Shown here: in pieces, positions 18,136 through 35,670 of the stretch | How the letters are laid out: each line of letters begins with the position of its first letter | Position numbering within the stretch: position 1 is the stretch's first letter | NCBI GenBank assembly: GCA_964518215.1 | Contig: CAZFFP010000007.1 | Location: forward strand, 1,121 to 65,120 | Direction: 5' to 3' | Source of the DNA: an uncultured Chitinophagaceae bacterium | Lineage (GTDB): Bacteria; Bacteroidota; Bacteroidia; Chitinophagales; CAIOSU01 | Length of the DNA stretch: 64,000 nt | The notes under the pieces: generated by a model | The model's input: only the letters and a program-made list of their open reading frames with translations | Database searches by the model: none | Told to the model about the DNA's origin: nothing | Program-made: the position numbers and the translations under genes

Positions 18136-18192
18136 ACCTTCATCAGCATTTTATTTTTATTGCAAGCATTGATTGCTAAAGCGGGCCGTTTT

Positions 18193-18208: not shown

Positions 18209-18225
18209 GAATTAATCAGTTCTCA

Positions 18226-18253
18226 TTTTGTAACTTAGATGTTAGTTACAAAA
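18226..18253 (+). promoter_or_regulatory. inverted repeat TTTTGTAACT-(8 nt)-AGTTACAAAA ending 8 nt before the ATG at 18262
   Basis: Perfect 10-bp arms (18226-18235 and 18244-18253), read directly. It could be an operator or an mRNA hairpin at the translation start. Confidence 0.35.
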
Positions 18254-18261
18254 TTTTAAAA

Positions 18262-19188
18262 ATGCCACACAGAAGAGTTCTCCATGACGATACGCTTGAA
18301 GCCCAATTTCAAAAAGACGGTTATGTGCGTGCGCCTTTCATAACGACCGAGGAGGTAGAGGCTCTAAAACAAAAGTTTTTTGATACCCTACCCCAAAGCG
18401 GTGGACAAATTACGGCTGATGAAACGGGCGTGGATGGCGGCAATCTGATTACCTACGACTTTACTTTTATTGATAAGAACCCCAACTACAAAAGGTTAGT
18501 GTTCGATATTATTACTGATTATTTCAAGCCGCATGTGGAGAGGCTTTTGGTAAACTATAAGCCAATTATTGCCAACTACATTCATAAGCGCCCTGAAGGA
18601 GGCGAAGTGCCCTTGCATCAAAATTGGGCTTTTGTAGATGAAAGGAAGTGCACTTCTGTTTCGATTTGGTGCCCGCTTGTGGACTCAACAGTTGACAATG
18701 GCACCCTTCAGGTAGTGCCCGGAAGTCACAAGCGTTTTGGTGAGTTTCGTGGCCCTATGGTCTCTTGGGAATTGGATAACATCAAGAAGGAATTAATCAA
18801 CAAATATCTTGTTCCGCTCGAAACCAAAGCCGGTGATTGTGTTATTTTAGATGACAGTATTATTCATTATTCTGCCATCAACAAAACTCCCGGGCTGCGC
18901 CTGACTATTCAGCTTATTTTAATTCCTTCTGAAGAGCCATCTATACACTATCACATGGATCCGCAACAACCCGAAATAATTCAGGTGCTTGAGGTCGACA
19001 AGGATTTTTACATGGAGTTCAACCCTTGGGCAAAACCAAAAAACGCGAAGCAGTTGCGCTCTTTCAGATTAAATCAACCGTTAATTAACGAGCAAGAATA
19101 TTTGCAAAGAATGAAATTGCCTAAGATTGATGAGCCACAGAAAAATTCACCGCGATTTTTTGAAAGATTAAAGGCGGTGTTTTCATAA
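18262..19188 (+). CDS. PhyH-family Fe(II)/2OG dioxygenase paralog, variant H-Q-N motif
   Basis: 308 aa. LHQNWAFVDE (CAT CAA AAT at 18616-18624), VVPGSH, IIHYSAIN. Same subfamily pattern as the other paralogs, but Asn replaces the facial-triad Asp. Confidence 0.8.
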   Translation: MPHRRVLHDDTLEAQFQKDGYVRAPFITTEEVEALKQKFFDTLPQSGGQITADETGVDGGNLITYDFTFIDKNPNYKRLVFDIITDYFKPHVERLLVNYKPIIANYIHKRPEGGEVPLHQNWAFVDERKCTSVSIWCPLVDSTVDNGTLQVVPGSHKRFGEFRGPMVSWELDNIKKELINKYLVPLETKAGDCVILDDSIIHYSAINKTPGLRLTIQLILIPSEEPSIHYHMDPQQPEIIQVLEVDKDFYMEFNPWAKPKNAKQLRSFRLNQPLINEQEYLQRMKLPKIDEPQKNSPRFFERLKAVFS

Positions 19189-19189
19189 A

Positions 19190-20023
19190 ATGGATATTGT
19201 CATCGAACCAAAACCGCTTAAAGTTATCACCCCCGATTCGCCCGGCATTGCCGAATATTGGCGAGAAATGGTGAAATATCGCTCTCTTATTGTTGTGTTT
19301 GCGCAACAGGAAATAAAAGCCATGTATGCACAAACATACTTTGGTTTATTATGGAGTGTTATTCGCCCATTGATTACTTTGGCAATTTTTTCTGTTATTT
19401 TCAATTACTTTCTAAAAGTACCCACCGAAAAACCTTATTACGTTTTTGCTTTTGCAGGAATGATTGCATGGAATTTTTTCTCTCTCATATCAAACAGTGC
19501 TTCAACTGCTATTCTTGCCAAGCAAAATCTTATTCGCAAAATGTATTTCCCAAAGCTTATTTTACCATTATCAAAAGTTTTGGTGGCAAGTGTAGATTTT
19601 GCCGTTTCATTAGTAATTATTTTTTCAATGATGGTGTATGAAGGGGGAATGTTTGGCATTCAAACATTATCGCTTCCATTTTTTGTTTTATTAAATGTGT
19701 TATGCGGGTTAGCCGTTGCTCTTTGGATGAATTCGCTCAACATCCGATTTCGCGATTTGCACCAAATTATTCCTGCTATTATCGGCATTGCCATTTGGGT
19801 AACTCCCGTTTTTTATCCCACAACTATTATTCCTGCGGGCTACGATTTTTTTGTTTATGCCAATCCGATGGCAGGAGTTATAAAAGGATTTCGCTTTGCA
19901 TTATTAGGGGAAGCTTTTCCTGAATGGCAATATTGGATTGCCATGGGAATAACTTCGCTGCTGGCAGTTGTTGGGGCATGGTATTTATCGCAAACCGAAG
20001 ATAAAATGGTGGATTATGCATAG
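19190..20023 (+). CDS. wzm: ABC-2 type polysaccharide/teichoic-acid-type export permease (Wzm/TagG-like)
   Basis: 277 aa, 6 predicted TM helices. The N-terminal YRSLIVVFAQQEIKAMYAQTYFGLLWSVIRPL is typical of ABC-2 permeases. Confidence 0.85.
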   Translation: MDIVIEPKPLKVITPDSPGIAEYWREMVKYRSLIVVFAQQEIKAMYAQTYFGLLWSVIRPLITLAIFSVIFNYFLKVPTEKPYYVFAFAGMIAWNFFSLISNSASTAILAKQNLIRKMYFPKLILPLSKVLVASVDFAVSLVIIFSMMVYEGGMFGIQTLSLPFFVLLNVLCGLAVALWMNSLNIRFRDLHQIIPAIIGIAIWVTPVFYPTTIIPAGYDFFVYANPMAGVIKGFRFALLGEAFPEWQYWIAMGITSLLAVVGAWYLSQTEDKMVDYA

Positions 20024-21953
20024 CCTCTACACCACATCTCGAATCTTTAGAAATGTCGGATTACAAAAACAATTTGAGCTGTACGGTTATGTTGTTGTGC
20101 CATTTCTAAGTGAAGGCGAAGTGAAAGCCCTGCGCGATTTTTTCTTTGAAAAACATCCGAACATTCCCGATGGTTTTTACAGCAGCAGTTTTAATACCGA
20201 TGACGCGCACAAGAAAAGTGTGAACCAAAAAATTGAAAGTGTGTTGAGCGGAAGGGTAGAGGAACATTTCAATTCAATTAAAAAACTCGGCAGTTGTTTT
20301 TTGAACAAGCAGCCGGGAGCGCAAAGCGAAATGCCCATTCATCAGGATTGGACGGTAGTTGATGAGCCAAACTTCGACAGCATAACTATATGGATTCCCT
20401 TGCAAGATGTAAACAAAACCAATGGAGCGATTCAGGTGATAGATGGCAGCCATCGCCTCACTAAAGCATTACGATCGCCTTCTTTGGAAGACCCTTTTAA
20501 AAATGTGCAAAGCGAAATGCGCAAAGATTTAAAGTTGTTGCCCATGAAAGCGGGAGAGGCATTTATTTTTTCACAGGCATTACTTCATGCTTCGCCACCA
20601 AATTTGAGCAACGAGCCACGCATTGCTGTTACTTATGGTTTAATAGATGCCCAGGCACAACTGATGTTTTATCATCATGAAGCAGGTAAGGTGGAGCAAT
20701 ACTTTGTGGACGAAAGTTTCTTTCAGCAATACAACACACAAATAGGGCAGCGACCAAATTTTGGTAGCGTGCAAAAAACTTTCGATTATCAACAGCACTT
20801 TGTTTCAGCTCTTGAATACCAAAAGATGAAGCAAAATTTTCAGCATATTAAAGCAGCGCAGATGTATAAAATGATTCCAATTTTTAAGGACGATAGCAAA
20901 CAGCAATTTTTTGAGAAAGAAGGCTATGCGGTTTTCCCTTTATTGAATGAAAGTGAGGTGGCTGATTTGAAGGCCTACTACGAAAACCTGAATCTGAAAG
21001 ATGAAAAGGGTTTTGGCTTTCATGTAAGTATGGACAACAGCGATAAAGATTTGTGTCGCAAAGTCAGAGAAAAAGTTTGGGGCGTTGCTTTGCCAAGATT
21101 AGGTGAGCACCTGAAAGATTTCAAGCCGTTTGTTTCGAGTTATGTGGTTAAAGAAATAAACCCTAAAGGAGTGGTGCCTGCACATCAGGATTGGAGTTTT
21201 GTAGATAGAGAAGAAGATGGTTATTCCTCGATTACTTGCTGGATTGCACTGGTGGATACCAATATGGATAATGGAGGTATGGGTGTGATTCGCGGCAGCC
21301 ATAAGTTTATGCAAAACCATCGACCATCGCCATCGCCACAATGCCCCGTGCCTTTGAGCGAACACATGTTCAGCATCTTTCCTTATCTGCACACAGTGGA
21401 TGTAAAAGCAGGCGAGGTGCTGATGTTTGACAACCGAACCTTCCATGCTTCGCCACCAAACACCTCTAATTTTTTACGATTAGCTGCAGGAGTTGGTGTA
21501 ACACAAAAAGATGCGCAGTTGGTGCACTATTATTTAAAGCCCGATGGTACTTTTAAAACTATGTTGCGCTATAATGTAGATGAAGATTTTTACCTGAAAT
21601 ATGAAAATGCAACTTTATCAAAAATGTACGATGAAGGCAAAGTGATTGAAGGCTATGGCGAGCCGGTGGAAGTGCCTTATGAATACAATAAGTACACAAC
21701 AGATGAGTTGGTAGAAATTATCAAAGCAGCGGGTAATGAATACAATATTCCCATGACAGAAAAATTGGCGAAGTTGTTTGGTTACTTAAATGCGGAGCAA
21801 AAGAAAGAGGAAGCAAAAGAAGGAGTATTTGAAACGCCACAACCAATAGAAGTGCAGGAAGAATGGAAGTGGGTGGACGATAGACCCTTTTTTGCAAAAT
21901 ACACTCCTTTAAATATTGCACGAGAAATTAAAAAGCGATTAGTGGGCGCATAA
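20016..21953 (+). CDS. tandem di-domain PhyH-family Fe(II)/2OG dioxygenase
   Basis: I use the ATG at 20016 (MHSLYTTS), an 8-nt overlap with wzm. N-domain: PIHQDWTVVDE, VIDGSH, LLHASPPN. C-domain: PAHQDWSFVDRE, VIRGSH, TFHASPPN. Confidence 0.85.
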   Translation: MHSLYTTSRIFRNVGLQKQFELYGYVVVPFLSEGEVKALRDFFFEKHPNIPDGFYSSSFNTDDAHKKSVNQKIESVLSGRVEEHFNSIKKLGSCFLNKQPGAQSEMPIHQDWTVVDEPNFDSITIWIPLQDVNKTNGAIQVIDGSHRLTKALRSPSLEDPFKNVQSEMRKDLKLLPMKAGEAFIFSQALLHASPPNLSNEPRIAVTYGLIDAQAQLMFYHHEAGKVEQYFVDESFFQQYNTQIGQRPNFGSVQKTFDYQQHFVSALEYQKMKQNFQHIKAAQMYKMIPIFKDDSKQQFFEKEGYAVFPLLNESEVADLKAYYENLNLKDEKGFGFHVSMDNSDKDLCRKVREKVWGVALPRLGEHLKDFKPFVSSYVVKEINPKGVVPAHQDWSFVDREEDGYSSITCWIALVDTNMDNGGMGVIRGSHKFMQNHRPSPSPQCPVPLSEHMFSIFPYLHTVDVKAGEVLMFDNRTFHASPPNTSNFLRLAAGVGVTQKDAQLVHYYLKPDGTFKTMLRYNVDEDFYLKYENATLSKMYDEGKVIEGYGEPVEVPYEYNKYTTDELVEIIKAAGNEYNIPMTEKLAKLFGYLNAEQKKEEAKEGVFETPQPIEVQEEWKWVDDRPFFAKYTPLNIAREIKKRLVGA

Positions 21954-21965
21954 ATCAAAAAAATC

Positions 21966-22934
21966 ATGTTCCAGTTTCCAGATAAAATGTTGCAGGTGTT
22001 TCGCGATGAAAAACACCAAAGTGATTTTGAGAAAAATGGCTTTGTGATTCTTCCTTTTTATACTCCTGAAGAAATCAAAGAATTGGAAGCCACCTATCAT
22101 CGCTTGCATCCGCAAGATGAAAAAGGATTTTTCCCCAGCACCTTTTCAAAAGATAAAAACTATCGTCATGAAGCCGATGAAGAAATTAAACGCATAGGCA
22201 ATCGTAGCATTGAAATGTATTGTCAGGACATTAAAGTGGTGTGCGGCTCATTTATTGTAAAAAGCCCCGGCCCTGAAAGCGGCATGTGTGTGCATCAGGA
22301 TATGAGCCTGATTGATGAAAGTCGCTTTACCGGCATCAACATTTGGGTGCCGTTGATAGACCTAACTATTGAAAATGGTGCATTGTTTGTATTGCCCGGC
22401 AGCCACAGAATTTTCCCTACGTATCGTGGCAGCAGCATCCCCGAATTTTTTGCACCGGTGATGAATGATATGATTGACTACCTGCAACCTGTTTTGATAA
22501 AAGCAGGCGAAGCAGTGTTTTTCGACCAAAGCATTATTCACTTTTCTCCCCCTAACTACTCTGATAAAATCAGGATTGTAACCAACACTTATTTTACACA
22601 CAAAACAACTGAATACAGAACTTACTATTGGAACAAAGAGCAACATGGGAGCAATAAATTAGAAGCCTTTGCCCAGGACGATGATTTCATGACCAACTTT
22701 GAGCAGTTTGGCGAGAACATTCGCGATAGACCAAAAGTAGGCAAGTCGCTTGGGCTGGTGGAATATGACTTTCCAACAATTAATAAGGCATTTTTAGATA
22801 GTCGCTTTCAGCGCACCAATGCCAGAAAGTTAATTGAAGATGCCAAGCCTGAATTGTTAAATGTTCAAGCTCCGGTTCAGGCCGAAATTAAAAGCAAAAG
22901 CATTTTTCAACGCTTAAAAGAATTGGTGAGTTAA
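21966..22934 (+). CDS. PhyH-family Fe(II)/2OG dioxygenase paralog
   Basis: 322 aa. CVHQDMSLIDE, VLPGSH, IIHFSPPN. Confidence 0.85.
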   Translation: MFQFPDKMLQVFRDEKHQSDFEKNGFVILPFYTPEEIKELEATYHRLHPQDEKGFFPSTFSKDKNYRHEADEEIKRIGNRSIEMYCQDIKVVCGSFIVKSPGPESGMCVHQDMSLIDESRFTGINIWVPLIDLTIENGALFVLPGSHRIFPTYRGSSIPEFFAPVMNDMIDYLQPVLIKAGEAVFFDQSIIHFSPPNYSDKIRIVTNTYFTHKTTEYRTYYWNKEQHGSNKLEAFAQDDDFMTNFEQFGENIRDRPKVGKSLGLVEYDFPTINKAFLDSRFQRTNARKLIEDAKPELLNVQAPVQAEIKSKSIFQRLKELVS

Positions 22935-23870
22935 ATGGGCAAGCGCATATTTAAAAGCGATGAGCACCAGCAACTGTTTGAGAAGCAAGGCTTCATTGTA
23001 CTGCCTTTTATTACTACAGATGAAGTGGCACAATTAGAAAAATTGTTTGATGAGTTGCATCCTCAAATTAATGAAGGGGGCTTTTTTAGTGGAAGCTACA
23101 GTAGTGATATTGAATACAAGAAAAAAGCTAGTGAAGAGATTGTCAAAGTTTTTAGTAGAGCTTACAATGAACTATTCATCAATTACACTCCCTTTGGTGC
23201 TGCGTTTCTTTACAAGGTGCCGGGTGTAAACAGCGAGCTTGCTGCGCACCAAGATTGGACGATAGTAGATGAACAGAAAAATGTTGCGCTCAACTGTTGG
23301 GTGCCGCTTTGTGATGTTGCAAAAGAGAACGGAGCATTGAGTATTTTGCCGGGTAGTCATTACAATAACCTGAATGTAGTTCGCGCACCCACGCTTCCGT
23401 TTTTTTTTAGTGGTGATGATGATATGGTATTGAAAGAATTGATACCCATGGAAGTAAATGCGGGAACGGCTGTGATTCTTAATCAAAGCGTGATTCATTA
23501 CTCACCGCCCAACAACAGCAACAAAATTCGCAAGGCAATTACGGCCGGACTGAAGAGCGAAGGCGCACAAATGTATTTTCACTACAAAGTTCCCGATAAA
23601 GATGAACTGGAAGTTTTTGAAATGGATGACGACTTTCTTATCAGTTTCAAAGACTTTATGAATGACATCGGAAAGCGACCCTATCTTGGTAAAAGCATTG
23701 GCTTAATTCCTTACAGGCTACCTCAACTGCACGGGACTGATTTGTACGAAAAGCTGAAAGAAATGAAAACTAAAGCAGGATTTGAGATGAGCAGGAATGA
23801 AAAAGTTGAAGTGGACCATAAGAGTGGCGGAAAACTTCGTAAATTGATTTCACGCCTGTTTGGCAATTGA
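22935..23870 (+). CDS. PhyH-family Fe(II)/2OG dioxygenase paralog
   Basis: 311 aa. AAHQDWTIVDE, ILPGSH, VIHYSPPN. The start abuts the previous stop. Confidence 0.85.
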   Translation: MGKRIFKSDEHQQLFEKQGFIVLPFITTDEVAQLEKLFDELHPQINEGGFFSGSYSSDIEYKKKASEEIVKVFSRAYNELFINYTPFGAAFLYKVPGVNSELAAHQDWTIVDEQKNVALNCWVPLCDVAKENGALSILPGSHYNNLNVVRAPTLPFFFSGDDDMVLKELIPMEVNAGTAVILNQSVIHYSPPNNSNKIRKAITAGLKSEGAQMYFHYKVPDKDELEVFEMDDDFLISFKDFMNDIGKRPYLGKSIGLIPYRLPQLHGTDLYEKLKEMKTKAGFEMSRNEKVEVDHKSGGKLRKLISRLFGN

Positions 23871-25514
23871 CTCTATTTCTTCATTAATTGCTATTCTTTC
23901 GGCTTCAAACTCTATAAAGCCTTGGTGAAAATCTGCACTCGAATCATAAATTTTTGTTGCAGCGCCCGCATTAATACCGGCTTTAAATAACAAAAATTTA
24001 TACACATGATAGATGTTGTGTAGAGCATATGCACTAAACTCCGGGTTCCTTTGCTTAAATCCGGTAATTACATCAGCCATAATTGACATTGGCCTGATGA
24101 GTATTTTTGGTATTTTTTCAACTTTTTCTAGGGTAAGGTTTTCCCTCCATTTTTCCGGAAGCGCAGGCAAAATTCTAAATATTACCTCATATGCTTTGTA
24201 TTTATTCATCAATTCTATGTCTTTCACATTTTCTGTATTCCTGAAAAAATAAAAGTCTTCTCCTTCATTGATTTTTCGTGCCTGTTCGGCTGTTATTACT
24301 CCTCTTTCTTCTGCATCTTTCATCATGTCTGTGCCGGGTAAATAACAAGTCCAGAATGTTTGAATTCTTTTAGGATGATGTGTTGCATAAAGTTTTCTTG
24401 CATTTTCCTGAGCTATTAATGGCTCATCAGGCAAGCCAAACATGTGGTCAACTTTTGCATGCATTCCATATTTATACATTAATTCTAAGGCTTCACTAAT
24501 GTCGTCAGATTTTTCATAACGCATTAAATTGTCTTTTTTGAAGCCCTCGTCCATGCTTTGCACGCCCATTTGAATCCACTCGCATCCGGATTCTTTCAGC
24601 CAACCGGCAACCTCATTACTCATGTATTTTGGATGGGTAAGAATATTGTATGGAATATTAATTTCCTTTTTATACTTATAGGCAAATTCTTGTAGCCATT
24701 TTTTGCTTGTAGCAAACACATCGTCCTGAAAATCAATTTTATGAATCTTATATCTTCTTTTTGCAATTTTCAATTCGGCAATAACATGATCTACACTTCT
24801 TAATCGGACATATTTTCCACTCTTTTCTTCGGGTAATTTTGCCACAAAATTGTTGAAGCAGAAGGTGCATCTGTATGGACAGCCCCTTGATGCCATGGTT
24901 AAATACAAATCGCCTAACCGCACATGCTCTTCCCAAATGGTTTTATCAAAAAAGGGCAAGGAATCTAAATCTTGTATGAAGCCCTTTTGAAGCCCTGTAA
25001 TTACTTTTCCTTCTTTGTTTTTAAATCTTGTATTGTATATAGGGTCTGTATATTTTCCTTCTCTAACCGTATTAATGATTTGTGGAAATGCTACATCGCC
25101 CTCGCCCACTACAACGAAATCTACCTCCGGACGAACGATTACTAAACTTGGAACAGCCGAAGGATGAACACCGCCAAAAACAGTTTTAATATTTGGATTT
25201 ATTTCTTTTGCCGCTCGTGCCACTTCAAGCATCCATTGATAAGTTGATGTTAATGCAGAGAATGCCAATATATCGGGCTGTTGGTCTTTGATAGCCTGAA
25301 TGACTTTATGTGTATCATCAAAATATGGAGCAATTGATGGAAATTCTAAATTAAAACGATCGTGGAAGAGAGATGCACTAAAAGCCATTCCAACACTATG
25401 TCCTTCCCGTTTTGCAATGGCACTTATTTGACTGATTCCGAGCTGTTCTGTTCCTAAACCTACAAATGTGATTTTCATTTCTCTGAAAGGGTTTATATCG
25501 TCTAAATTATACAC
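23850..25514 (-). CDS. B12-binding domain radical SAM enzyme (class B)
   Basis: 554 aa. N-terminal Rossmann-like B12-binding segment (KITFVGLGTEQLGISQISAIAKREGHSV...ILAFSALTS) and radical SAM cluster motif SRGCPYRCTFC. Confidence 0.85.
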   Translation of the reverse strand: MYNLDDINPFREMKITFVGLGTEQLGISQISAIAKREGHSVGMAFSASLFHDRFNLEFPSIAPYFDDTHKVIQAIKDQQPDILAFSALTSTYQWMLEVARAAKEINPNIKTVFGGVHPSAVPSLVIVRPEVDFVVVGEGDVAFPQIINTVREGKYTDPIYNTRFKNKEGKVITGLQKGFIQDLDSLPFFDKTIWEEHVRLGDLYLTMASRGCPYRCTFCFNNFVAKLPEEKSGKYVRLRSVDHVIAELKIAKRRYKIHKIDFQDDVFATSKKWLQEFAYKYKKEINIPYNILTHPKYMSNEVAGWLKESGCEWIQMGVQSMDEGFKKDNLMRYEKSDDISEALELMYKYGMHAKVDHMFGLPDEPLIAQENARKLYATHHPKRIQTFWTCYLPGTDMMKDAEERGVITAEQARKINEGEDFYFFRNTENVKDIELMNKYKAYEVIFRILPALPEKWRENLTLEKVEKIPKILIRPMSIMADVITGFKQRNPEFSAYALHNIYHVYKFLLFKAGINAGAATKIYDSSADFHQGFIEFEAERIAINEEIESIAKQA

Positions 25515-25730: not shown

Positions 25731-26633
25731 ATGAACAGCAGTTTACAAAATGTTCCGGACGCCACCATCAGTGACGAAAATTTTCTCCATTTCCCACATG
25801 TAAAAGTTGAAGAGTTGTCTGCTTACCCGGATGGTCTTAGCGACATACAAACCGGAAAAACCCATGGGTTTCTAATAAGGGGAGTTTTTAGCGCTGATGA
25901 AGCAGATAAGCTTGTTGAAGAGTTTTACAAAGTTGATGACGACAGATTTGAACACAATAAAAACGGAAGAAATATTCCTAAGCCCTTTGCCTCTGTATCG
26001 TTAAACAGTGAGCCGGGAGGAGAGATAGACCCCTATTTTGCTGCTGCGGGAGCCTTTTGGGACAATTTCCCGGAAAAATTTGGTATTGATTTCAGCGACA
26101 GGGTAAAAAAAGTCTTTGAAAAAATAAGCGGAGGCCGTCCGGTGGGCGTTCCGCAGGAACCAAACAAAAACATCAGTTTCAGTCCGGCTCAAATGCGAGA
26201 AATGTATGCAGGAAAAGGGGGCATTTATGTTCATTGCGGTAAATATTTTAGAGATAGGTTTTCCAGTTTTTATACTTATCTTAAAGACGTTTCCATTGTT
26301 GATGAGCAAATTAGCTACTTTGTTATGCTGCAACCGCCCGACAGTGGTGGTGAACTTACGGTTTACGATATTTTGTACAACAATGTGAAGCAAAAGAACG
26401 AAGAGTGGGACAACAAAATTGTAATTGCCGATGATGGAACCGCCATAGACTTGGAAGACCCGAAAGGCGTGAGAAGAAGAAAATTGCGTCCGGGCAAAGG
26501 AGATATGATTGTTTTTGATGGCGGCAATATCTGGCACAGAGTAGAAGATCCGGAAGGCTCTAAAAACAGAGTTACTGCCGGGGGCTTTATGACTTTCTCG
26601 CACGATAACAGCAAGGTGTATTTCTGGGGTTGA
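25731..26633 (+). CDS. WelO5-like Fe(II)/2OG enzyme with H-x-G motif (candidate aliphatic halogenase)
   Basis: 300 aa. IYVHCGKYF: His168-Cys169-Gly170, encoded by CAT TGC GGT at 26232-26240. Also ISYFVMLQPPDSGGELTVYD and PGKGDMIVFDGGNIWHRVEDPEGSKNRVTAGGFMTFSHDNSKVYFWG. From memory this follows the WelO5/AmbO5 layout (H164-x-G166, H259, C-terminal ...GGF-x-x-FS.....IYYWS). Confidence 0.6.
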   Translation: MNSSLQNVPDATISDENFLHFPHVKVEELSAYPDGLSDIQTGKTHGFLIRGVFSADEADKLVEEFYKVDDDRFEHNKNGRNIPKPFASVSLNSEPGGEIDPYFAAAGAFWDNFPEKFGIDFSDRVKKVFEKISGGRPVGVPQEPNKNISFSPAQMREMYAGKGGIYVHCGKYFRDRFSSFYTYLKDVSIVDEQISYFVMLQPPDSGGELTVYDILYNNVKQKNEEWDNKIVIADDGTAIDLEDPKGVRRRKLRPGKGDMIVFDGGNIWHRVEDPEGSKNRVTAGGFMTFSHDNSKVYFWG

Positions 26634-26647: not shown

Positions 26648-27487
26648 ATGCAGACAAACTTGAATTTTATTGATGAAAAACTTCAGAAGGAATATAACGA
26701 TAGGGGTTATTTTATTACACCTCTGCTAGACGATTCTCAAATAAGCAAGCTGCAAGATGTTTTTTATTCCTGTCTAGATGTAAATAAGCTGCCAACGGTC
26801 TATGATACAGTAGCCGAGATTCCTGTTGAGCAGGTATTGCAAATCAGCAAAAAGATAAATGACATTTGTAAAGGTTCTTTCGATTTAATTGTAGAAAATT
26901 ATAAAATAGCCGCATCTATATTTATTTCGAAAAAACCGGGTAATGACGGCTTCAATGGATATCATATTGATGCAACCATGACCCATGAGAAGTATAATAC
27001 TGTCGCTATTTGGATTCCGCTTTGCGATGTTGATGAGAAGGTGGGCAGAATGTGTTTGCTTGAAAACAGTCATTGTTTTTTACCCAGATACAATATTCCT
27101 TCTATGCCTAATGCCTATAAAGATGTCCAGAGTTTTGCATCAAAACATGTGAAGTGTTTTAACATGAAGAAAGGAGAGGCATTATTTTTTGAAGGAAGCA
27201 TGTTGCATGGCACCGAGTTAAATTCCTCCGAATCAATACGCATTGCCGCGGTTATTAAACTTATTGATATTCATGCGCCAAAAATTACCGCTTACTACCA
27301 TGAGCAGGCGCCTGAAGGAGAAAAATTGGCGCTGTATGAACACAATGACGATTTTTTTCTTCCGCAAGCATTTAAGTCATCATTGCCCCCCGAAGATAGC
27401 AGTTTTGTTGGATACGTTCCTTCAATGCCCAAAATATTTACTCAGAGCGAAATAGAGCATTTGCTTGAGAATAGATGCACAAATTGA
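26648..27487 (+). CDS. PhyH-family Fe(II)/2OG dioxygenase, divergent paralog
   Basis: I prefer the ATG at 26648 (MQTNLNFIDEKLQKEYNDRGYFITPL) over the TTG at 26630. NGYHIDATMTHE, LLENSH, MLHGTELN. Confidence 0.75.
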   Translation: MQTNLNFIDEKLQKEYNDRGYFITPLLDDSQISKLQDVFYSCLDVNKLPTVYDTVAEIPVEQVLQISKKINDICKGSFDLIVENYKIAASIFISKKPGNDGFNGYHIDATMTHEKYNTVAIWIPLCDVDEKVGRMCLLENSHCFLPRYNIPSMPNAYKDVQSFASKHVKCFNMKKGEALFFEGSMLHGTELNSSESIRIAAVIKLIDIHAPKITAYYHEQAPEGEKLALYEHNDDFFLPQAFKSSLPPEDSSFVGYVPSMPKIFTQSEIEHLLENRCTN

Positions 27488-27537: not shown

Positions 27538-28959
27538 ATGTCTGAAAAAAATATTATTCTTATAGACCTCCCCACCTTTCCTAAAGGTATTGTTTCCTTA
27601 TCCATACCAATAATTGCTGCCTGTTTTAAAAAATATTTTGAAGTAAAAGCGTTTGACCTGAATATTGACAGCTTTGATGCCACTCAATATGTTGACGACA
27701 ACACGCTGATGGTGGGAATGAAAGTTTCTTCACAAAATGCTTCCATAGCAACGGAACTGACGCAAATGCTTAAGCGCAAATTCCCCTCACTTAAAATTGT
27801 TTGGGGCGGGGAGTATCCCAGTTTATTGCCGGAGGAGTGTTTAAAACATGCTCACTCTGTTGTTGCGGGTTTATTGGAGCCGGTGTCCGATGAACTGTCT
27901 GCCGACTTATTGTCGGGAAACCTTAAAATGAAATATGTCGGGAAAAATGAAAATGTTCCTGAAATGATGCCGGTGCCCGACTTTAGTGTGTTGCCGCCTT
28001 TTCGCAAATATCTTTCATTCATGGGGCTGCCATTAGAAACCTCCAGAGGCTGCACGGAAAATTGTATGTTTTGCATGGTGTTGGTAATGCAGAAAAAAAA
28101 TTACTACCTAAAACCTGTCGAACAATTAAGCAAAGAGATAAAATTATATGACTGCAAGTTTATCAATATTGTTGACTACAATTTTGGGGTTAGCAAAGAA
28201 CATGTTATCAACGTGTCGCGCATCATAAAATCATCCGGTGCTTTGGGCTGGATGGCCGAAATGTGCATTGAGCTGTTGGACGATGATGAATTGCTGCAAG
28301 AAATGAGCAGAAGCCGCTGTCGAATGATATATTGCGGCCTGGAAAGTATAGAAGAAGAAACGCTTAGTTCCTTTAACAAAGACCGAACAAATCATGTTGA
28401 AAATTACGAACGCATTATACGAAAGGCTCAATCGTACGGAATTCAGATTGCTGCAGGGTTAATTTTGGGCGCAGCAAACACCACTCCGCAAACTTTCATC
28501 AAGACATTCGATTTTTTTCAGAAAATGGGAATTATATACACCAAACTAACATTTCTAACCTATAATCCCGGAACCAGAGTGCAGGAATATATGCGCAAAA
28601 AGGGTATTTATCTCACGGATAAACATGAAGAGTATGACGGGGTTCGCTTTTCTTTTCTGTCGGAAGGAGTGGAGAAAGGTGTAGTCTTAAATGGCTTTGA
28701 ATATTATGTGCGCGAATTTTACAGCATAACAAATATCTTGAAAAGAGCTTTAAAAACCAATGTGGATTTACTGGGAAAAGCAGAATTTTTTCTTTTTTCA
28801 TATTGTTATGCAGATGTATATCGAAAGTCAATCGTAAACAATTATCTGCGATTTCCGGAAAATTTCGACAAACTGTTAATAAGCAAACATCAGCCGTCAT
28901 TCACGCTTATTTTAATGCAAAAGCTTCTTTTTATTGTAAGGGTTCTTCGAAAAAAATAA
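27538..28959 (+). CDS. B12-binding domain radical SAM enzyme (class B)
   Basis: 473 aa. N-terminal B12-like segment (NIILIDLPTFPKGIVSLSIPIIAAC...) and cluster motif SRGCTENCMFC. Confidence 0.75.
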   Translation: MSEKNIILIDLPTFPKGIVSLSIPIIAACFKKYFEVKAFDLNIDSFDATQYVDDNTLMVGMKVSSQNASIATELTQMLKRKFPSLKIVWGGEYPSLLPEECLKHAHSVVAGLLEPVSDELSADLLSGNLKMKYVGKNENVPEMMPVPDFSVLPPFRKYLSFMGLPLETSRGCTENCMFCMVLVMQKKNYYLKPVEQLSKEIKLYDCKFINIVDYNFGVSKEHVINVSRIIKSSGALGWMAEMCIELLDDDELLQEMSRSRCRMIYCGLESIEEETLSSFNKDRTNHVENYERIIRKAQSYGIQIAAGLILGAANTTPQTFIKTFDFFQKMGIIYTKLTFLTYNPGTRVQEYMRKKGIYLTDKHEEYDGVRFSFLSEGVEKGVVLNGFEYYVREFYSITNILKRALKTNVDLLGKAEFFLFSYCYADVYRKSIVNNYLRFPENFDKLLISKHQPSFTLILMQKLLFIVRVLRKK

Positions 28960-30382: not shown

Positions 30383-32095
30383 TTACTCATTAAAGTGCAA
30401 TTCATATCTAAAAATCTGAAAATCTCCGTTTCGCCCGTCTTGAAGAACAATTTCTTCTACCGGACGAAATTCAACATCTATTTTATGAACAATATTTAAA
30501 AACGGCTCCAATAAAGCCATTCGGTTTTCTGTAGAATAGTAAATTATATTTTCGGATTCCGCTCTCATAAATTCAAAAAACTCTTTTACACTATGTGCGT
30601 TACACTGACAGGTTTCGTTCAAAAACCTTTCGTAATCGGGTAAATAGGCAACTTGAGCCATGTCATAAAAAATCACATTTTCTCTCATTTGAAAAAAACG
30701 AAAAACAAAATCGTCTAAAACTTCACGGCTCGATGTATCGAAGAAAATAAATTTCCCGTTTTGTTTAGAAAATATTTTTTCGGTGGTTGCAGCACGTTCA
30801 CGAATCATTCTCTTATTAATGCCGATTTCTTTTTTCAGGAACCAAACATTCTGAAGTAATAAAGCGCCCAAGCCGAAAAGCAGTATCAATTTTATCTTTT
30901 GAAAATATTCATAATGCTCAATCATAAACAACAAGTTGCCAACTATTGCGAGCTGAATAATCGGCAAAAAATGCCATTGCTCCATTTTTAAGGAGTATGC
31001 CAAAGAGCTTATGATTATCCATATTGAAACATTGAACAGCATAGTTTTAAGAAGAAAAAAATTGTTTTTTAATCTGAAAAACAAGAATAGCAGCCCCGTC
31101 AATGTGAACAAATAGATGGTTAATAGTGGCATGTTTCTTTGCATTGTAGGAAAAGCCGTGTAAGATATTTGCTTATAAATATCCTTCGGTCTTGCAGAAA
31201 ACATTTCTTTTTCAAAGGCAATTTTTTCGTCTGATATTTTCTTAAACAAATCATAATTGAAAGTGGCGCTATCAATTAAAAAAGAAGCTCTAGACATTTT
31301 GCGAATAAGAGCATCAACACTATCGGTTGCAATAACAGGTGGAGAGTTGTGCGAATCGGTTACATAAAACACCATCGGCTCTACATCTCTAAAGAAAGGA
31401 TGTGTATTCATAACATAGTAGAACCTTACAAAAAATAAAATAATGGCTAATGCAGGCAGCCAGTATAATTTCAAAAACCGAAACAAATTGCGGTCGGCAA
31501 TTAAAACAAAAACCGATGCAATCAATGTGCCGCCTAAGCCCGACTCAATACGCATGGAGTAGCCCCAAAAAACAAAAAATGTAAGAAGCAAATATCCGCA
31601 CCATCGGATGATGGGCGTTTTAATTTGATAGTATCCTTTCCAAATGGCTAAAAGCGAAGTTGAGGTGAGCAGCATGCTAATGCCGGTAATTGAAAATTCG
31701 ATAAATGACACGCCAAAAATTAAAAGCATAGTAGCCGCCCAAACAATAAAAATTTTCTTAAAAGAAATGCTTGAGAGGTTTTTATTGGCTAATAACAGGA
31801 AAATCACCAAAGCCTGTATTATAACCCATGCCGAAAAAAGCAATAGTGCAGTCCACGAAAAAGAGGGGAGGTAATAATGAAGAAATGCCTGTACATGAGT
31901 CATGGGACTCATGCCCATGTGGTAATTTTCGGTTATAAACACGCCCGATACGCTGCTGCTAACCATCATCGCCATGAATGACTCATAAAAACCCCAAATA
32001 GGGTCAATTATAATGCAGGCCATTATGGAAAGAACTGTGGTAGTGAAAAATATTTTGCCTAGGCAAACCACTTCTTCTTTGTGTACATTATTCAT
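30383..32095 (-). CDS. polytopic membrane protein with soluble C-terminal domain (paralog of 37570-39246), family unknown
   Basis: 570 aa with 10 or more hydrophobic helices. The C-terminal segment IIYYSTENRMALLEPFLNIVHKIDVEFRP matches IRLYATENRLALIKAYFEIVYSYNFEYEP in the paralog. Confidence 0.7.
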   Translation of the reverse strand: MNNVHKEEVVCLGKIFFTTTVLSIMACIIIDPIWGFYESFMAMMVSSSVSGVFITENYHMGMSPMTHVQAFLHYYLPSFSWTALLLFSAWVIIQALVIFLLLANKNLSSISFKKIFIVWAATMLLIFGVSFIEFSITGISMLLTSTSLLAIWKGYYQIKTPIIRWCGYLLLTFFVFWGYSMRIESGLGGTLIASVFVLIADRNLFRFLKLYWLPALAIILFFVRFYYVMNTHPFFRDVEPMVFYVTDSHNSPPVIATDSVDALIRKMSRASFLIDSATFNYDLFKKISDEKIAFEKEMFSARPKDIYKQISYTAFPTMQRNMPLLTIYLFTLTGLLFLFFRLKNNFFLLKTMLFNVSIWIIISSLAYSLKMEQWHFLPIIQLAIVGNLLFMIEHYEYFQKIKLILLFGLGALLLQNVWFLKKEIGINKRMIRERAATTEKIFSKQNGKFIFFDTSSREVLDDFVFRFFQMRENVIFYDMAQVAYLPDYERFLNETCQCNAHSVKEFFEFMRAESENIIYYSTENRMALLEPFLNIVHKIDVEFRPVEEIVLQDGRNGDFQIFRYELHFNE

Positions 32096-32937
32096 AAACT
32101 ATTTTCAAGACTGCTTTTGGCTATTATATCTTTTGCTGTTGGTAATTCCGGAAGGACTATTTTGGGGTGTCTGAGAATAGCTGTATCGGGGATATTTACG
32201 TTTGGCAATTGCTCTAATAATTTGTTAAAGTCATTAGCCGCCAGCTCATGCCCGTTCACCTCTCCGTTATTATTGTCGTAATAAATTATGGGCGACTCAA
32301 TATGCTTAACGATAAAAGCCAGAATGGGTCTGCTTTCATTGCTTGTATTTGGAAATGAGCCGTGAAAAGCCGCTTGATGAAAGGCTAAGCAACTACCCGC
32401 TTTCAACGCTATGTTTTCTTTTAAATTATCAGGAATTTTTTCGAATTCAATTCGGCTCGAATCAAGAGAAGCAGATCTGTAAGTTTTGAAATACCAATGT
32501 GAATGGGGGATAATGCTCATGCCGCCATTTGCATTATTTGAATCATATAGCGGAATCCAGCAGGTCGCAAAAGCATGTTTGGTTTCATCTGTATAACTCC
32601 AGTCTTGATGATAAACAAAAGTATCAAATGTTTTGGCGGGTTTAGTAATGAATAAGCACCCTAAGATTTCAAATGAATTAAAATGACCGGAAAGCTTTGC
32701 TTTCAACTTTTCTAAAATTAATTCAAACGGCTTCTTGCTTTCAGACAAACTTAAAGCCGACACACTGTAGTTGACTCCGTAAAACTGTCGTTGTTCCAGT
32801 CGCTTTTCTGCTCCATTTAAATCGGCATAAATTTCTCTCACAAAATCTATTTCTGAAGTTTCGAGAAATGGAAATGTAGTAAATCCTTTATTGATGAATT
32901 CACTTTCGGCTTGTTTATTTTTAAAGGGTGTTTGCAT
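32092..32937 (-). CDS. PhyH-family Fe(II)/2OG dioxygenase paralog
   Basis: 281 aa. VYHQDWSYTDE, IIPHSH, AAFHGSFPN. 4-nt overlap with the downstream membrane protein gene. Confidence 0.85.
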   Translation of the reverse strand: MQTPFKNKQAESEFINKGFTTFPFLETSEIDFVREIYADLNGAEKRLEQRQFYGVNYSVSALSLSESKKPFELILEKLKAKLSGHFNSFEILGCLFITKPAKTFDTFVYHQDWSYTDETKHAFATCWIPLYDSNNANGGMSIIPHSHWYFKTYRSASLDSSRIEFEKIPDNLKENIALKAGSCLAFHQAAFHGSFPNTSNESRPILAFIVKHIESPIIYYDNNNGEVNGHELAANDFNKLLEQLPNVNIPDTAILRHPKIVLPELPTAKDIIAKSSLENSL

Positions 32938-33121: not shown

Positions 33122-33883
33122 TTAAACGCCAATAATTTTTTTGTATCTGGCAGCAGCCCAACTAAGTGGTATTTGCCAACCTCTCGACCACCAAAAGTTT
33201 ATGGCAATGGAATCTTCTTCGTTTACTACATAATGCCACCACATAGATGGAATGAACAAGGTGTCGCCCGCATTTATTTCTGCCACAAAGGGTTTTGCAT
33301 GGTGCAGTTTTGGAAATTTTTTGTAATCTGGTTTTTCCAGCTTTATTTTAGAAAAGTTGGGGTGTTTAGAAAAAATACTGTTGGGGTAAAGGTGGGTTTT
33401 GGGACTGAATAGTATAATTTTTTTTCTGCCTTTCACCAATACAAGTATATTCTCTGGGATGTCTCTGTGAAGGGCGGTGGATGAATTTTTTGGCGCAATA
33501 AATATTCTTGAATTTAACACCTTGCCGTTGGCACAATACTCAGGCACCCAATAATCTTTTTTTATTTTTTTGTTAAAAAAATCTACAGGACTGGCAACTG
33601 CCTTTTTTTTGTCGATTTCGCGTGCCGGTAAAGTTTTATAAGAATGAAGGTCAGAAGAGCCGTTTACGATGTCCATCATTCCGATTTCAGAGCCGGCAAA
33701 ATTTTCTGTAAAATATTCTGCAGACCATGCTTGCATCGCGGGCCAGTGGTCAACCAGATGTTTGATAATAATGGGGCGACTTTTTTTGACAAATGCTTCG
33801 AAAAATTCAGACTTTGAAATGGCGCTAATACTGTTTATATAGTCGGGAGCCTGCATAGAAAGAGTTTCTCTATCAACCAACAT
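33122..33883 (-). CDS. JmjC / cupin-8 type Fe(II)/2OG oxygenase
   Basis: LHRDIPENILVLVKGRKKIILFSP (H-x-D) and GDTLFIPSMWWHYVVNEEDSIAINFWW (distal His). The start is uncertain. The track gives 33955 (83-nt overlap with the upstream gene). In-frame ATGs also occur at 33883 and 33856. Confidence 0.75.
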   Translation of the reverse strand: MLVDRETLSMQAPDYINSISAISKSEFFEAFVKKSRPIIIKHLVDHWPAMQAWSAEYFTENFAGSEIGMMDIVNGSSDLHSYKTLPAREIDKKKAVASPVDFFNKKIKKDYWVPEYCANGKVLNSRIFIAPKNSSTALHRDIPENILVLVKGRKKIILFSPKTHLYPNSIFSKHPNFSKIKLEKPDYKKFPKLHHAKPFVAEINAGDTLFIPSMWWHYVVNEEDSIAINFWWSRGWQIPLSWAAARYKKIIGV

Positions 33884-34883: not shown

Positions 34884-35670
34884 ATTGTAATTTTAATAAT
34901 TGTGCCCAACAGATTAAAAAGTAAAATCGAGAAACATACCAAGACAAGGATATGTTTCGAGTAATCATGTAAACTGCAAGAGGAATAAGGCAACTAATTG
35001 CCCACATCCAATTGATATAAATATACAATAATGCGCCCAACAGAAAACAATAAAAAAAAATAATAGCTGTATGTAATTGGGGCAATGCCACTACTGTAGT
35101 TCTAATAGCCGCTTTTGAATCGGCATCTTTGTCGGTCATAGTTTGATATATGTGGGCTATTCCAGTCATGATTCCAACGATAAAAAAGAATTGAAGATTA
35201 ATCTCGCCCGCAATGGAAATAAAAAGCCCTCCCCAAATTATAACGGCTATAATGTCTATTCCGGGAATGGCTTTAAACTTATAAGAATAGAGCCAGTTGA
35301 CTATTAAAAGCAATAAAATCAAAACAGATTTTTCGTAAGAAAACCAAACCAGCGAAAGCAGTATGGGTAATATTGAAATAGAAATATTGGCAAAAAGAAA
35401 TAAATTTTTGTGCTGAATAATAGAGGCAACAAATGAAGTGTCTTTTTTGGGGTTTAGCATATCTGCTTGCCGATCTTTGTAATCGTTAAGCCCGTAAAGT
35501 GCGCACATTACTATTGCAGATATGGCGCTATCTAAAAAAAATGCGTTAGAAAAGTTGAATAAAAAATAAGCATGAATAACATTGAACAAAATTAGCCCGC
35601 CTTCGCCTTTTAAGAGTCTATGATACAGCGGAAAAAACAAAAATTTAAATACGACAAAAAGGGTGTTCAA
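34870..35670 (-). CDS. UbiA-family prenyltransferase
   Basis: 266 aa, about 8 TM helices. Asp-rich motifs GLNDYKDRQAD and YQTMTDKDADSKA. Confidence 0.8.
   Translation of the reverse strand: MNTLFVVFKFLFFPLYHRLLKGEGGLILFNVIHAYFLFNFSNAFFLDSAISAIVMCALYGLNDYKDRQADMLNPKKDTSFVASIIQHKNLFLFANISISILPILLSLVWFSYEKSVLILLLLIVNWLYSYKFKAIPGIDIIAVIIWGGLFISIAGEINLQFFFIVGIMTGIAHIYQTMTDKDADSKAAIRTTVVALPQLHTAIIFFYCFLLGALLYIYINWMWAISCLIPLAVYMITRNISLSWYVSRFYFLICWAQLLKLQYESL

What the first reader, a model, noticed from the sequence alone, without database searches (positions are those of the whole stretch)
18262..23870. Tandem array of PhyH-type dioxygenase paralogs wrapped around the ABC permease gene
Five consecutive PhyH domains lie in four ORFs (18262, 20016 with two domains, 21966, 22935) on one strand. 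They are interrupted only by the wzm-like permease. Junctions are tight: an 8-nt overlap at 20016-20023, and abutting stop and start codons at 22934/22935.

Three more paralogs lie at 26648, 32092(-) and 44798. All keep the same N-terminal pattern (F-E/Q-K-x-G-F/Y-V/I-x-x-P-F/L) and the same motif spacing. This indicates repeated duplication with divergence, as expected for several regio-specific oxidations of one scaffold.
Basis: seen in the sequence. Interest (0 to 1): 0.65.

Follow-up and report, generated by a model that had tools for sequence, protein, structure and literature searches.

The report
Conserved oxygenase array beside glycan exporter
The eight oxygenase copies are real and intact, but they are not recent duplicates: five of them form an ancient, fixed-order gene cassette tied to a cell-surface export pump in well over a hundred uncultured Bacteroidota, and its substrate is unknown.

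Summary
Eight PhyH-type Fe(II)/2-oxoglutarate oxygenase domains lie in seven intact ORFs, and five are consecutive around a wzm-like permease, with the stated junctions.

All eight belong to one distinct PhyH subfamily, but the duplications are ancient. Each of A-E has orthologues at 45-86% identity in other Bacteroidota MAGs, while the window's paralogues share only 20-35%.

The order A, B=C, D, E is kept in about 55 of 80 related loci. B=C is always fused. D=E, E=sixth paralogue and A=B=C fusions also occur. The permease usually sits upstream of A; its position inside the array is limited to close relatives of the window.

F, G and H are rare accessory members. Paralogue A carries His-x-Asn instead of His-x-Asp in every orthologue seen (61 of 61 with that column present in related loci, 120 of 120 in the database), so this is a conserved variant, not decay.

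Family domains are also found fused to a Wzt-type ATPase, a UbiA prenyltransferase, methyltransferases and Asp/Asn hydroxylases. Most core paralogues end in a conserved amphipathic helix.

Best reading: a membrane-associated multi-oxygenase assembly that tailors a lipid-linked envelope precursor before Wzm/Wzt export. The substrate is unknown. I found no paper describing it.

The parts
18225..18254 (+). Perfect 11-nt inverted repeat (ATTTTGTAACT / AGTTACAAAAT, 8-nt spacer) ending 8 nt before the start codon of paralogue A. Possible operator or RNA hairpin.
   Evidence: not followed up
18262..19188 (+). PhyH paralogue A, 308 aa. It has His-x-Asn (H119-Q-N121) in place of His-x-Asp. The distal His, Ser, Asn and Arg are kept. 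It ends in an amphipathic helix (FFERLKAVFS).
   Evidence: Pfam 1e-23. Asn in 61 of 61 locus orthologues with that column present and in 120 of 120 database orthologues. AF2 pLDDT 89.6, pTM 0.88. Foldseek finds PhyH-fold neighbours.
19190..20023 (+). Wzm-like ABC-2 permease, 277 aa.
   Evidence: PF01061, 2.6e-14. Best NCBIfam match is galactan Wzm/RfbD, below its cut-off. A homologue was found by clustering in 43 of 80 related loci.
20016..21953 (+). Two-domain PhyH protein B=C, 645 aa. Both domains have HQD...H...R. A disordered linker leads to a terminal helix (YTPLNIAREIKKRLVGA).
   Evidence: Pfam 9e-50, two stretches. Fused in 56 of 56 loci. AF2 pLDDT 86.7, pTM 0.70.
21966..22934 (+). PhyH paralogue D, 322 aa. 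HQD triad. Tail IFQRLKELVS.
22935..23870 (+). PhyH paralogue E, 311 aa. HQD triad. Fused to D in some other genomes.
23850..25514 (-). B12-binding radical SAM enzyme, convergent with E (21-nt 3' overlap).
   Evidence: (best match HpnJ, below cut-off)
25731..26633 (+). WelO5-like Fe/2OG enzyme with the halogenase-type His-x-Gly motif (VHCG).
   Evidence: PF22814, 1.3e-64. Aligned to HVG of solved WelO5-family structures, E 1e-32. The motif is HCG or HCA in 10 of 13 homologous ORFs in related loci, and HCE or HHD in the other 3.
26648..27487 (+). Accessory PhyH paralogue F, 279 aa. HID triad. No amphipathic tail.
27538..28959 (+). B12-binding radical SAM enzyme.
30383..32095 (-). Polytopic membrane protein (about 8 TM segments plus a C-terminal soluble domain), no Pfam match. 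Appears paralogous to 37570-39246, judged by eye from similar C-terminal stretches.
32092..32937 (-). Accessory PhyH paralogue G, 281 aa. HQD triad.
33122..33955 (-). Cupin_8/JmjC-type oxygenase.
33873..34883 (-). Radical SAM enzyme.
34870..35670 (-). UbiA-family prenyltransferase; subfamily unresolved.
35677..36414 (-). Asp/Asn beta-hydroxylase-type Fe/2OG oxygenase.
36544..37560 (-). Flippase-like membrane protein (LPG_synthase_TM / TIGR00374).
37570..39246 (-). Second polytopic membrane protein without a Pfam match.
39259..40038 (-). Second Asp/Asn beta-hydroxylase-type oxygenase.
40110..40838 (-). Short GT2 glycosyltransferase, 242 aa.
40828..42216 (-). B12-binding radical SAM enzyme.
43558..44772 (+). 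Wzt/TagH-like ABC ATPase with a C-terminal extension of about 170 aa of unknown fold.
44798..45640 (+). Accessory PhyH paralogue H, 280 aa, directly downstream of wzt.
   Evidence: Only 12 database clusters at 43-54% identity.
45774..47189 (+). PMT_2-type (GT-C) membrane glycosyltransferase.

Best explanation
The array is the window's copy of an ancient, conserved cassette of uncultured Bacteroidota. The consensus order is wzm, A, B=C, D, E, usually a sixth paralogue, a SAM methyltransferase, then wzt.

Shown:
- The paralogues form one PhyH subfamily.
- Seven of the eight have the full Fe(II)/2-oxoglutarate ligand set. A has a strictly conserved His-x-Asn variant.
- A-E co-evolve and are repeatedly fused to one another.
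- In other genomes, domains of this family are fused to a Wzt-type ATPase, a UbiA prenyltransferase, methyltransferases and AspH-type hydroxylases.
- Most core paralogues end in a conserved amphipathic helix behind a flexible linker.

Inferred:
- The paralogues form a multi-oxygenase assembly at the cytoplasmic face of the inner membrane.
- They carry out successive, position-specific oxidations of one lipid-linked (polyprenyl- or prenyl-anchored) envelope precursor.
- The Wzm/Wzt transporter then exports the product, and GT-C-type enzymes handle it in the periplasm.
- Lineage-variable accessory enzymes diversify the product. In this window these are F, G, H, a WelO5-like halogenase, B12-radical SAM enzymes, and AspH and JmjC oxygenases.

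Not resolved:
- Whether the oxidised part is a sugar, an acyl substituent or a prenyl chain.
- Whether A is catalytic.
For: - Family identity: Pfam PhyH for all eight. Ligand columns are invariant across orthogroups. DSBH models and Foldseek neighbours SnoN/SnoK, SyrB2, PHYHD1, EctD, HygX/AviO1/EvdO2.
- Ancient cassette: 80 related loci, all labelled MAGs of Bacteroidota, carry 5-14 family domains per 20 kb when the contig is long enough. The A, B=C, D, E order recurs. Orthogroup clades are seen in the tree. Pairwise identities of A-E orthologues correlate across 39 loci, r = 0.54-0.82.
- Physical coupling: B=C fused 56/56, D=E fused 11 of 75. D=E, B=C and E=sixth fusions occur in the database. 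An A=B=C triple fusion and a PhyHx2-ABC ATPase fusion exist. MT-UbiA-PhyHx2, TE-PhyH-UbiA-PhyH-TPR and PhyHx3-AspH fusions exist.
- Membrane tails: helical hydrophobic moment 0.55-0.67, against 0.40 for internal control segments. The models show a low-confidence linker followed by a terminal helix.
- Exporter type: best NCBIfam matches are TagH, Wzt and Wzm.
- Recurrent neighbours: methyltransferase in 33 loci, Wzt 25, B12-rSAM 21, GT2 20, UbiA 20, DegT 12, WelO5 11; also KAS III, GNAT and epimerase.
- Close relatives keep the same accessory set.
Against: - No substrate, product or activity is known. All homologues come from metagenomes or MAGs.
- The ABC components score far below NCBIfam equivalog cut-offs.
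- The Wzt C-terminal extension matches no known carbohydrate-binding module.
- No obvious chain-building glycosyltransferases are conserved with the cassette.
- WelO5-type halogenases and UbiA plus methyltransferase sets are better known from small-molecule pathways (my own knowledge).
- The complex is inferred from fusions, not demonstrated. pTM 0.70 for B=C is only moderate.
- Deep nodes of the tree are unresolved, and family monophyly against four partial PDB outgroups has bootstrap 50.
Confidence: 0.5

Rival explanations
1. The cassette is a secondary-metabolite pathway. A UbiA enzyme prenylates a small acceptor. The PhyH paralogues, methyltransferases, B12-radical SAM enzymes and the WelO5-like halogenase tailor a diffusible, meroterpenoid-like molecule. 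The ABC-2 transporter is simply its efflux pump.
For: - UbiA lies within 10 kb in 20 of 80 loci and is fused to PhyH domains in two database proteins.
- A CMAS-like methyltransferase is present in 33 loci.
- A halogenase-type WelO5 homologue recurs.
- Fungal meroterpenoid clusters carry several PhyH-type paralogues, including TlxI/J heterodimers.
Against: - No PKS, NRPS or terpene cyclase is seen in the window or in the recurrent neighbour families.
- The transporter's best matches are glycan and teichoic-acid exporters.
- Sugar-nucleotide genes (DegT, a UDP-GlcNAc 3-dehydrogenase-like enzyme, epimerase, GNAT), GT2 and GT-C genes recur.
- 60-80% identity of orthologues across orders is unusually high for secondary metabolism (my own judgement).
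Confidence: 0.22
2. The paralogues act on soluble precursors (nucleotide sugars, amino acids or acyl carriers) before assembly, not on a lipid-linked intermediate. Their link to wzm/wzt is only co-regulation.
For: - The proteins have no TM segments.
- Known relatives such as EctD, proline and leucine hydroxylases and PhnY-type enzymes act on small soluble substrates.
- DegT, dehydrogenase and GNAT neighbours make modified nucleotide sugars.
Against: - Fusions to the integral-membrane UbiA and to the Wzt ATPase exist.
- Amphipathic C-terminal helices are conserved.
- Five to six conserved oxygenases is a large number for one monosaccharide precursor (inference).
Confidence: 0.15
3. The oxygenases hydroxylate a peptide or protein (a RiPP-like pathway), together with the radical SAM, AspH and JmjC enzymes.
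For: B12-radical SAM, SPASM radical SAM, Asp/Asn beta-hydroxylase and Cupin_8/JmjC genes occur in the window and in some related loci. PhyH-AspH fusions exist.
Against: - The short intergenic gaps leave little room for a precursor-peptide gene, and no peptidase or RiPP-recognition domain appeared in the Pfam scans. I ran no dedicated small-ORF search.
- These partners are not conserved with the core cassette.
Confidence: 0.06
4. The copies are recent, lineage-specific duplicates, partly redundant or decaying. This is the reading implied by the first reader's proposed test.
For: The copies are adjacent on one strand. One copy (A) lacks the canonical Asp.
Against: - Window paralogues are 20-35% identical to each other but 45-86% identical to orthologues elsewhere.
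- Each falls in an orthogroup clade.
- The Asn of A is invariant in every orthologue examined.
- All ORFs are intact.
Confidence: 0.02

Closest known systems
SnoK / SnoN (nogalamycin; PDB 5EPA, 5EP9)
   Same: They are among the closest solved relatives by sequence (SnoK E 7e-18) and the closest by fold (Foldseek E about 1e-12). They are two PhyH-type enzymes of one pathway that act on the sugar part of a glycoside (the substrate is from the PDB entry titles and my own knowledge).
   Different: TM-scores are only 0.45-0.6 and identity 16-18%. They are actinomycete small-molecule enzymes with no exporter coupling, no C-terminal extension or amphipathic tail, and no multi-domain fusions.
Orthosomycin oxygenases EvdO1/EvdO2/EvdMO1, AviO1, HygX
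   Same: These are PhyH-type enzymes of orthosomycin pathways that oxidise an oligosaccharide. EvdMO1 is a methyltransferase-oxygenase fusion, like the MT-PhyH fusions found here (the biochemistry is my own knowledge).
   Different: The relationship is distant (E 1e-11 to 4e-3). They are antibiotic clusters of actinomycetes, not wzm/wzt operons of Bacteroidota.
Fungal meroterpenoid PhyH-type oxygenases, including the TlxI/TlxJ heterodimer
   Same: They are paralogous PhyH-type enzymes in one cluster that work as heteromers. They offer a precedent for an auxiliary, non-canonical subunit (PMC12141560).
   Different: TlxI lacks the 2OG-binding Arg. Here the Arg is invariant in all paralogues and only the Asp of A is replaced. 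The kingdom and the context are different.
Wzm/Wzt and TagGH ABC-transporter-dependent glycan export
   Same: An ABC-2 permease plus an ATPase with a C-terminal extension, and a methyltransferase next to wzt in many related loci. This recalls terminal capping in O-antigen systems (my own knowledge).
   Different: Scores are far below equivalog cut-offs. No known Wzt carbohydrate-binding domain was detected. I found no description of five or six oxygenase domains lying between wzm and wzt.
KdoO and LpxO, Fe/2OG hydroxylases of lipopolysaccharide
   Same: They are Fe/2OG enzymes that hydroxylate a lipid-anchored envelope precursor at the cytoplasmic face before export (PMC5462993; my own knowledge). 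AspH/LpxO-type genes are present in the window.
   Different: They belong to different Fe/2OG families, are single enzymes, and are not paralogue arrays.
XAC3597, a PhyH-superfamily gene of Xanthomonas citri
   Same: An uncharacterised PhyH-superfamily gene recovered in a biofilm mutant screen (PMC3130047). From my own knowledge it lies in the LPS O-antigen region near wzm/wzt.
   Different: It is a single gene with unknown function. Whether it belongs to this subfamily was not tested.

Membership tests
PhyH family (Pfam PF05721) of Fe(II)/2OG oxygenases | Whole-protein score above Pfam's gathering threshold (22 bits) | tested here: met
   47-170 bits for all seven ORFs.
PhyH family (Pfam PF05721) of Fe(II)/2OG oxygenases | Double-stranded beta-helix fold resembling solved PhyH-type structures | tested here: met
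   AF2 models of A (pLDDT 89.6) and B=C (86.7). Foldseek probability 1.00 to SnoN, SnoK, SyrB2, PHYHD1 and EctD.
PhyH family (Pfam PF05721) of Fe(II)/2OG oxygenases | [quoted passage not shown] H) | tested here: not met
   Met in B, C, D, E, F, G and H. Paralogue A has H-Q-N, conserved in all orthologues examined. A is therefore a PhyH-fold member with a non-canonical site.
PhyH family (Pfam PF05721) of Fe(II)/2OG oxygenases | Conserved Arg that binds the C5 carboxylate of 2OG | tested here: met
   Invariant R (R199 in E numbering) in all eight domains and in all orthogroups.
PhyH family (Pfam PF05721) of Fe(II)/2OG oxygenases | 2OG-dependent oxidation of a substrate | not testable with these tools
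   Needs an enzyme assay.
Fe/2OG halogenases (SyrB2, WelO5, BesD type) | Carboxylate ligand replaced by Ala or Gly (H-x-A/G) | tested here: not met
   None of the eight PhyH domains has A or G; A has Asn. The neighbouring WelO5-like gene (25731-26633) does have H-C-G, aligned to the HVG of solved WelO5-family structures.
Wzm/Wzt polysaccharide ABC exporter | ABC-2 permease and ABC ATPase domains | tested here: met
   PF01061 54 bits; PF00005 64 bits.
Wzm/Wzt polysaccharide ABC exporter | Score above the curated equivalog cut-offs (galactan Wzm/Wzt, TagH, KpsM) | tested here: not met
   Wzm 51.5 bits against a cut-off of 380. Wzt 157 against 400. TagH 146-164 against 320-538.
Wzm/Wzt polysaccharide ABC exporter | Recognisable Wzt C-terminal carbohydrate-binding domain | tested here: inconclusive
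   The 170-aa C-terminal extension has no Pfam or PDB sequence match. Its fold was not predicted.
TlxI/J-type heterodimeric PhyH oxygenases with a dead auxiliary subunit | Auxiliary subunit lacks the 2OG-binding Arg | tested here: not met
   The Arg is invariant in every paralogue, including A. The feature is taken from PMC12141560.
TlxI/J-type heterodimeric PhyH oxygenases with a dead auxiliary subunit | Physical heteromer of paralogues | not testable with these tools
   Only indirect evidence: gene fusions B=C, D=E, E=sixth and A=B=C.

The most novel reading that the evidence does not exclude
A widespread, undescribed envelope pathway of uncultured Bacteroidota. A multi-paralogue Fe/2OG 'oxygenase assembly line' is physically coupled to a Wzm/Wzt exporter and a UbiA enzyme. 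It builds a poly-oxygenated, C-methylated and possibly chlorinated lipid-linked molecule. Paralogue A would represent a new, conserved 2-His-1-Asn class of Fe/2OG protein, with either altered chemistry or a dedicated non-catalytic role.
Probability: 0.3. Interest if true: 0.8.

Novelty: new variant of a known kind. Interest (0 to 1): 0.62.

Why it matters
Fe/2OG oxygenases of the PhyH type are well known as single tailoring enzymes. This case is different in several ways.

- A fixed set of five to six ancient paralogues is embedded in a surface-export operon.
- The set is conserved at 45-86% identity in MAGs labelled Chitinophagales, Flavobacteriales and Saprospiraceae.
- The paralogues are repeatedly fused to each other, to the transporter ATPase and to a prenyltransferase.
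- The family has about 2,150 clusters (at 50% identity) scoring E <= 1e-30, and no curated model or paper that I could find.

If the model holds, three things follow.

- It points to a heavily oxidised, possibly halogenated envelope component in abundant freshwater and wastewater Bacteroidota.
- It gives enzymologists a natural His-x-Asn site to study.
- It offers a set of related C-H oxidation catalysts with presumably different positional specificity.

Tried and rejected
- Exact look-up of paralogue E in the contig index found nothing.
- NCBIfam gave no family above its cut-off for any PhyH paralogue, the WelO5-like gene or the two unknown membrane proteins. There were only weak 'sporadic carbohydrate cluster 2OG-Fe(II) oxygenase' and 'chlorinating enzyme' matches.
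- Four literature searches for PhyH with O-antigen, polysaccharide, radical SAM, Wzm/Wzt or His-x-Asn found no description of this module. They turned up only XAC3597, KdoO, AspH and TlxIJ as context.
- PDB sequence searches with the window UbiA, a related-locus UbiA and the Wzt C-terminal extension found nothing useful.
- A relaxed Pfam scan of the two unknown membrane proteins found nothing.
- Cluster-member names for large fusion proteins gave no taxonomy.
- No tRNA lies in the window. The sigma-70 promoter scan was no better than shuffles, as expected for Bacteroidota.
- Rejected: a halogenase reading for A, because it has Asn rather than Ala or Gly.
- Rejected: recent duplication.
- Rejected: a TlxI-like dead subunit lacking Arg.
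- Not possible: comparing active-site pockets. The tools return no coordinates.

Full report
**1. Observation**

The window has ORFs at 18262-19188, 19190-20023, 20016-21953 (the longest frame starts at TTG 19968), 21966-22934 and 22935-23870, all on the + strand. Pfam assigns PhyH (PF05721) to each except 19190-20023, which is ABC2_membrane. The 645-aa protein has two PhyH stretches. The ORFs at 26648, 32092(-) and 44798 are also PhyH.

- An 8-nt overlap between the wzm stop and the B=C start.
- The D stop abuts the E start.
- One base lies between the A stop and the wzm start.

The only terminator-like site in 17900-28000 lies inside the B=C ORF, not between genes of the array.

I name the domains A (18262), B and C (the halves of 20016-21953), D, E, F (26648), G (32092, minus strand) and H (44798). 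They align end to end at 20-35% identity.

Only G and P are invariant, and SnoK, PHYH and PHYHD1 show a similar motif.

**2. Surroundings**

The array lies in a block of about 36 kb (12.5-48 kb) whose GC content is mostly lower (0.34-0.40 from 14 kb on) than most of the flanks (0.42-0.47). The block contains:
- GT1, Wza, Wzc and a WecA-like transferase upstream.
- Three B12-radical SAM enzymes and one other radical SAM enzyme.
- A WelO5-like protein and a Cupin_8/JmjC protein.
- Two Asp/Asn beta-hydroxylase-type proteins.
- UbiA, a flippase-like protein and a short GT2.
- A GDSL hydrolase and a multihaem cytochrome c.
- A Wzt-type ATPase, a PMT_2 (GT-C) enzyme and a methyltransferase.

Two polytopic membrane proteins have no Pfam match. 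Their C-terminal stretches look alike by eye, so they are probably paralogues. The flanks are housekeeping genes.

**3. One subfamily**

No NCBIfam model reaches its cut-off. The closest solved relatives are PHYHD1, SnoK, MysH, PHYH, EvdO2 and SnoN, with E 2e-18 to 5e-11.

A profile built only from A-E orthologues of other genomes scores F at 166, G at 151 and H at 208 bits. SnoK scores 65 and PHYH 52. All eight share a C-terminal extension after the catalytic core.

In a neighbour-joining tree of 202 sequences (the eight window domains, four outgroups and representatives at 62% identity), the family separates from four partial PDB outgroups. The bootstrap for that split is only 50.

**4. The duplications are ancient**

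- E has many database orthologues at 63-87% identity. A has 120 listed at 63-89%.
- A scan of one genome per species returned 145 relatives. The best 80 are all labelled MAGs of Bacteroidota, named Chitinophagales, Flavobacteriales, Saprospiraceae or Bacteroidia.
- Where the contig is long enough, these loci carry 5-14 family domains per 20 kb.
- Orthologues of A, B, C, D and E appear in that order.
- In the tree, each of A-E sits in its own orthogroup clade. Bootstrap values are A 100, E 94, D 78, C 39 and B 35-41. No two window domains are sisters.
- Orthologue identities co-vary across 39 loci, r = 0.54-0.82.
- F, G and H have no close orthologues in these loci. H has only 12 database clusters at 43-54%.

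So there is a conserved core (A-E, plus a sixth paralogue that this window lacks) and a variable accessory set.

**5. Architecture**

- B=C is fused in 56 of 56 loci.
- D=E is fused in 11 loci and split in 64.
- wzm lies upstream of A in 27 loci. It lies between A and B only in the window and in L005, L040 and L057.
- The consensus operon is wzm, A, B=C, D, E, sixth paralogue, methyltransferase, wzt. KAS III, GT2, GNAT or DegT genes often precede it. A reverse array of extra PhyH genes, WelO5, UbiA and B12-radical SAM genes often follows.
- Close relatives share the window's accessory set.

**6. Metal site**

B-H have H-x-D, a distal His and the 2OG-binding Arg. A has H-Q-N.

The Asn is present in all 61 locus orthologues that have that column, and in 120 of 120 database orthologues. 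The distal His, the Asn of the H-x-S-x-x-N motif and the Arg are invariant, and the Ser is nearly so (Thr in 7 locus orthologues). This is a conserved variant, not decay.

Two precedents show that either an active or an auxiliary role for A is conceivable:
- AspH works with only two protein ligands (abstracts of PMC10915816 and PMC13168262).
- TlxI is a dead auxiliary partner of TlxJ (PMC12141560).

**7. Structure and tails**

- The AF2 model of A has pLDDT 89.6 and pTM 0.88. The model of B=C has pLDDT 86.7 and pTM 0.70.
- Both models show a low-confidence linker followed by a terminal helix.
- The last 22 residues of A, C, D, E and many accessory paralogues carry conserved amphipathic motifs of the type FFQRLKELVS or YTPLNIAREIKKRL. 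Their helical moment is 0.55-0.67, against 0.40 for internal controls.
- Foldseek places A among PhyH-fold enzymes at TM 0.45-0.6.

**8. Fusions elsewhere**

A profile search of 1.84 billion cluster representatives found 2,151 proteins at E <= 1e-30, many with two or three family domains. Examples:
- A=B=C.
- PhyHx2 fused to an ABC ATPase.
- Methyltransferase-UbiA-PhyHx2.
- Thioesterase-PhyH-UbiA-PhyH-TPR.
- PhyHx3-AspH.
- Methyltransferase-PhyHx2.

**9. Interpretation**

The shown facts are a conserved core, co-evolution, fusions among paralogues, fusions with membrane and transport proteins, and amphipathic tails. The best-fitting model is a membrane-associated multi-oxygenase assembly that acts on a lipid-linked precursor before Wzm/Wzt export.

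The transporter's best matches are TagH, Wzt and Wzm, all below their cut-offs. The nature of the oxidised moiety is open. Sugar-nucleotide genes and prenyl or methyl-lipid-type genes both recur.

The rivals are a diffusible prenylated metabolite, action on soluble precursors, and peptide modification. Recent duplication is refuted.

**10. Novelty**

I found no paper or curated model for this module. It is a new variant of a known enzyme kind, in an undescribed and widespread arrangement.

Noticed in passing
window 25731-26633 (+): WelO5-like Fe/2OG protein with the halogenase-type H-C-G motif aligned to the HVG of solved WelO5-family structures (E 1e-32). Homologous ORFs in related loci mostly keep HCG or HCA (10 of 13). 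This raises the possibility of a chlorinated product in an envelope-type cluster.
   Followed up: partly
window 28978-30177 (-): Membrane-anchored multihaem cytochrome c (MtrC/MtrF-like CXXCH motifs) inside the cluster. Homologues recur in four related loci. Its role in such a cluster is unexplained.
   Followed up: no
window 30383-32095 (-) and 37570-39246 (-): Two 8-9 TM proteins with a soluble C-terminal domain and no Pfam, NCBIfam or other family match. Their C-terminal stretches look similar by eye. They may be GT-C-like transferases or polymerases. The first overlaps PhyH G by 4 nt.
   Followed up: partly
window 18225-18254 (+): Perfect 11-nt inverted repeat (ATTTTGTAACT / AGTTACAAAAT) ending 8 nt before the start codon of paralogue A. 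Possible operator or translational hairpin.
   Followed up: no
L078 4095-4934 (+): An accessory member of the same PhyH subfamily has H-Q-G at the carboxylate position (the SyrB2-like halogenase signature). L080 3566-4408 has H-Q-N, like paralogue A.
   Followed up: no
database proteins P0357, P0339, P0387, P0261, P0241: Large fusion proteins carrying domains of this subfamily: PhyHx2-ABC ATPase, MT-UbiA-PhyHx2, TE-PhyH-UbiA-PhyH-TPR, PhyHx3-AspH and A=B=C. Their genomic contexts could not be fetched.
   Followed up: partly
window 14000-48000 versus flanks; 683-1744 (-): GC is 0.34-0.40 across most of the cluster, against 0.42-0.47 in most of the flanks. A tyrosine-recombinase (phage integrase family) gene lies near the window start. 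No tRNA is present. The Wza/Wzc/WecA genes upstream are not linked to the cassette in other genomes.
   Followed up: partly
window 52903-59289 (-): A 2128-aa ORF with only weak Ig/PKD-like matches, probably a large surface protein. Not examined further.
   Followed up: no
window 23850-23870: The 3' ends of paralogue E (+) and the convergent B12-radical SAM gene (-) overlap by 21 nt.
   Followed up: no
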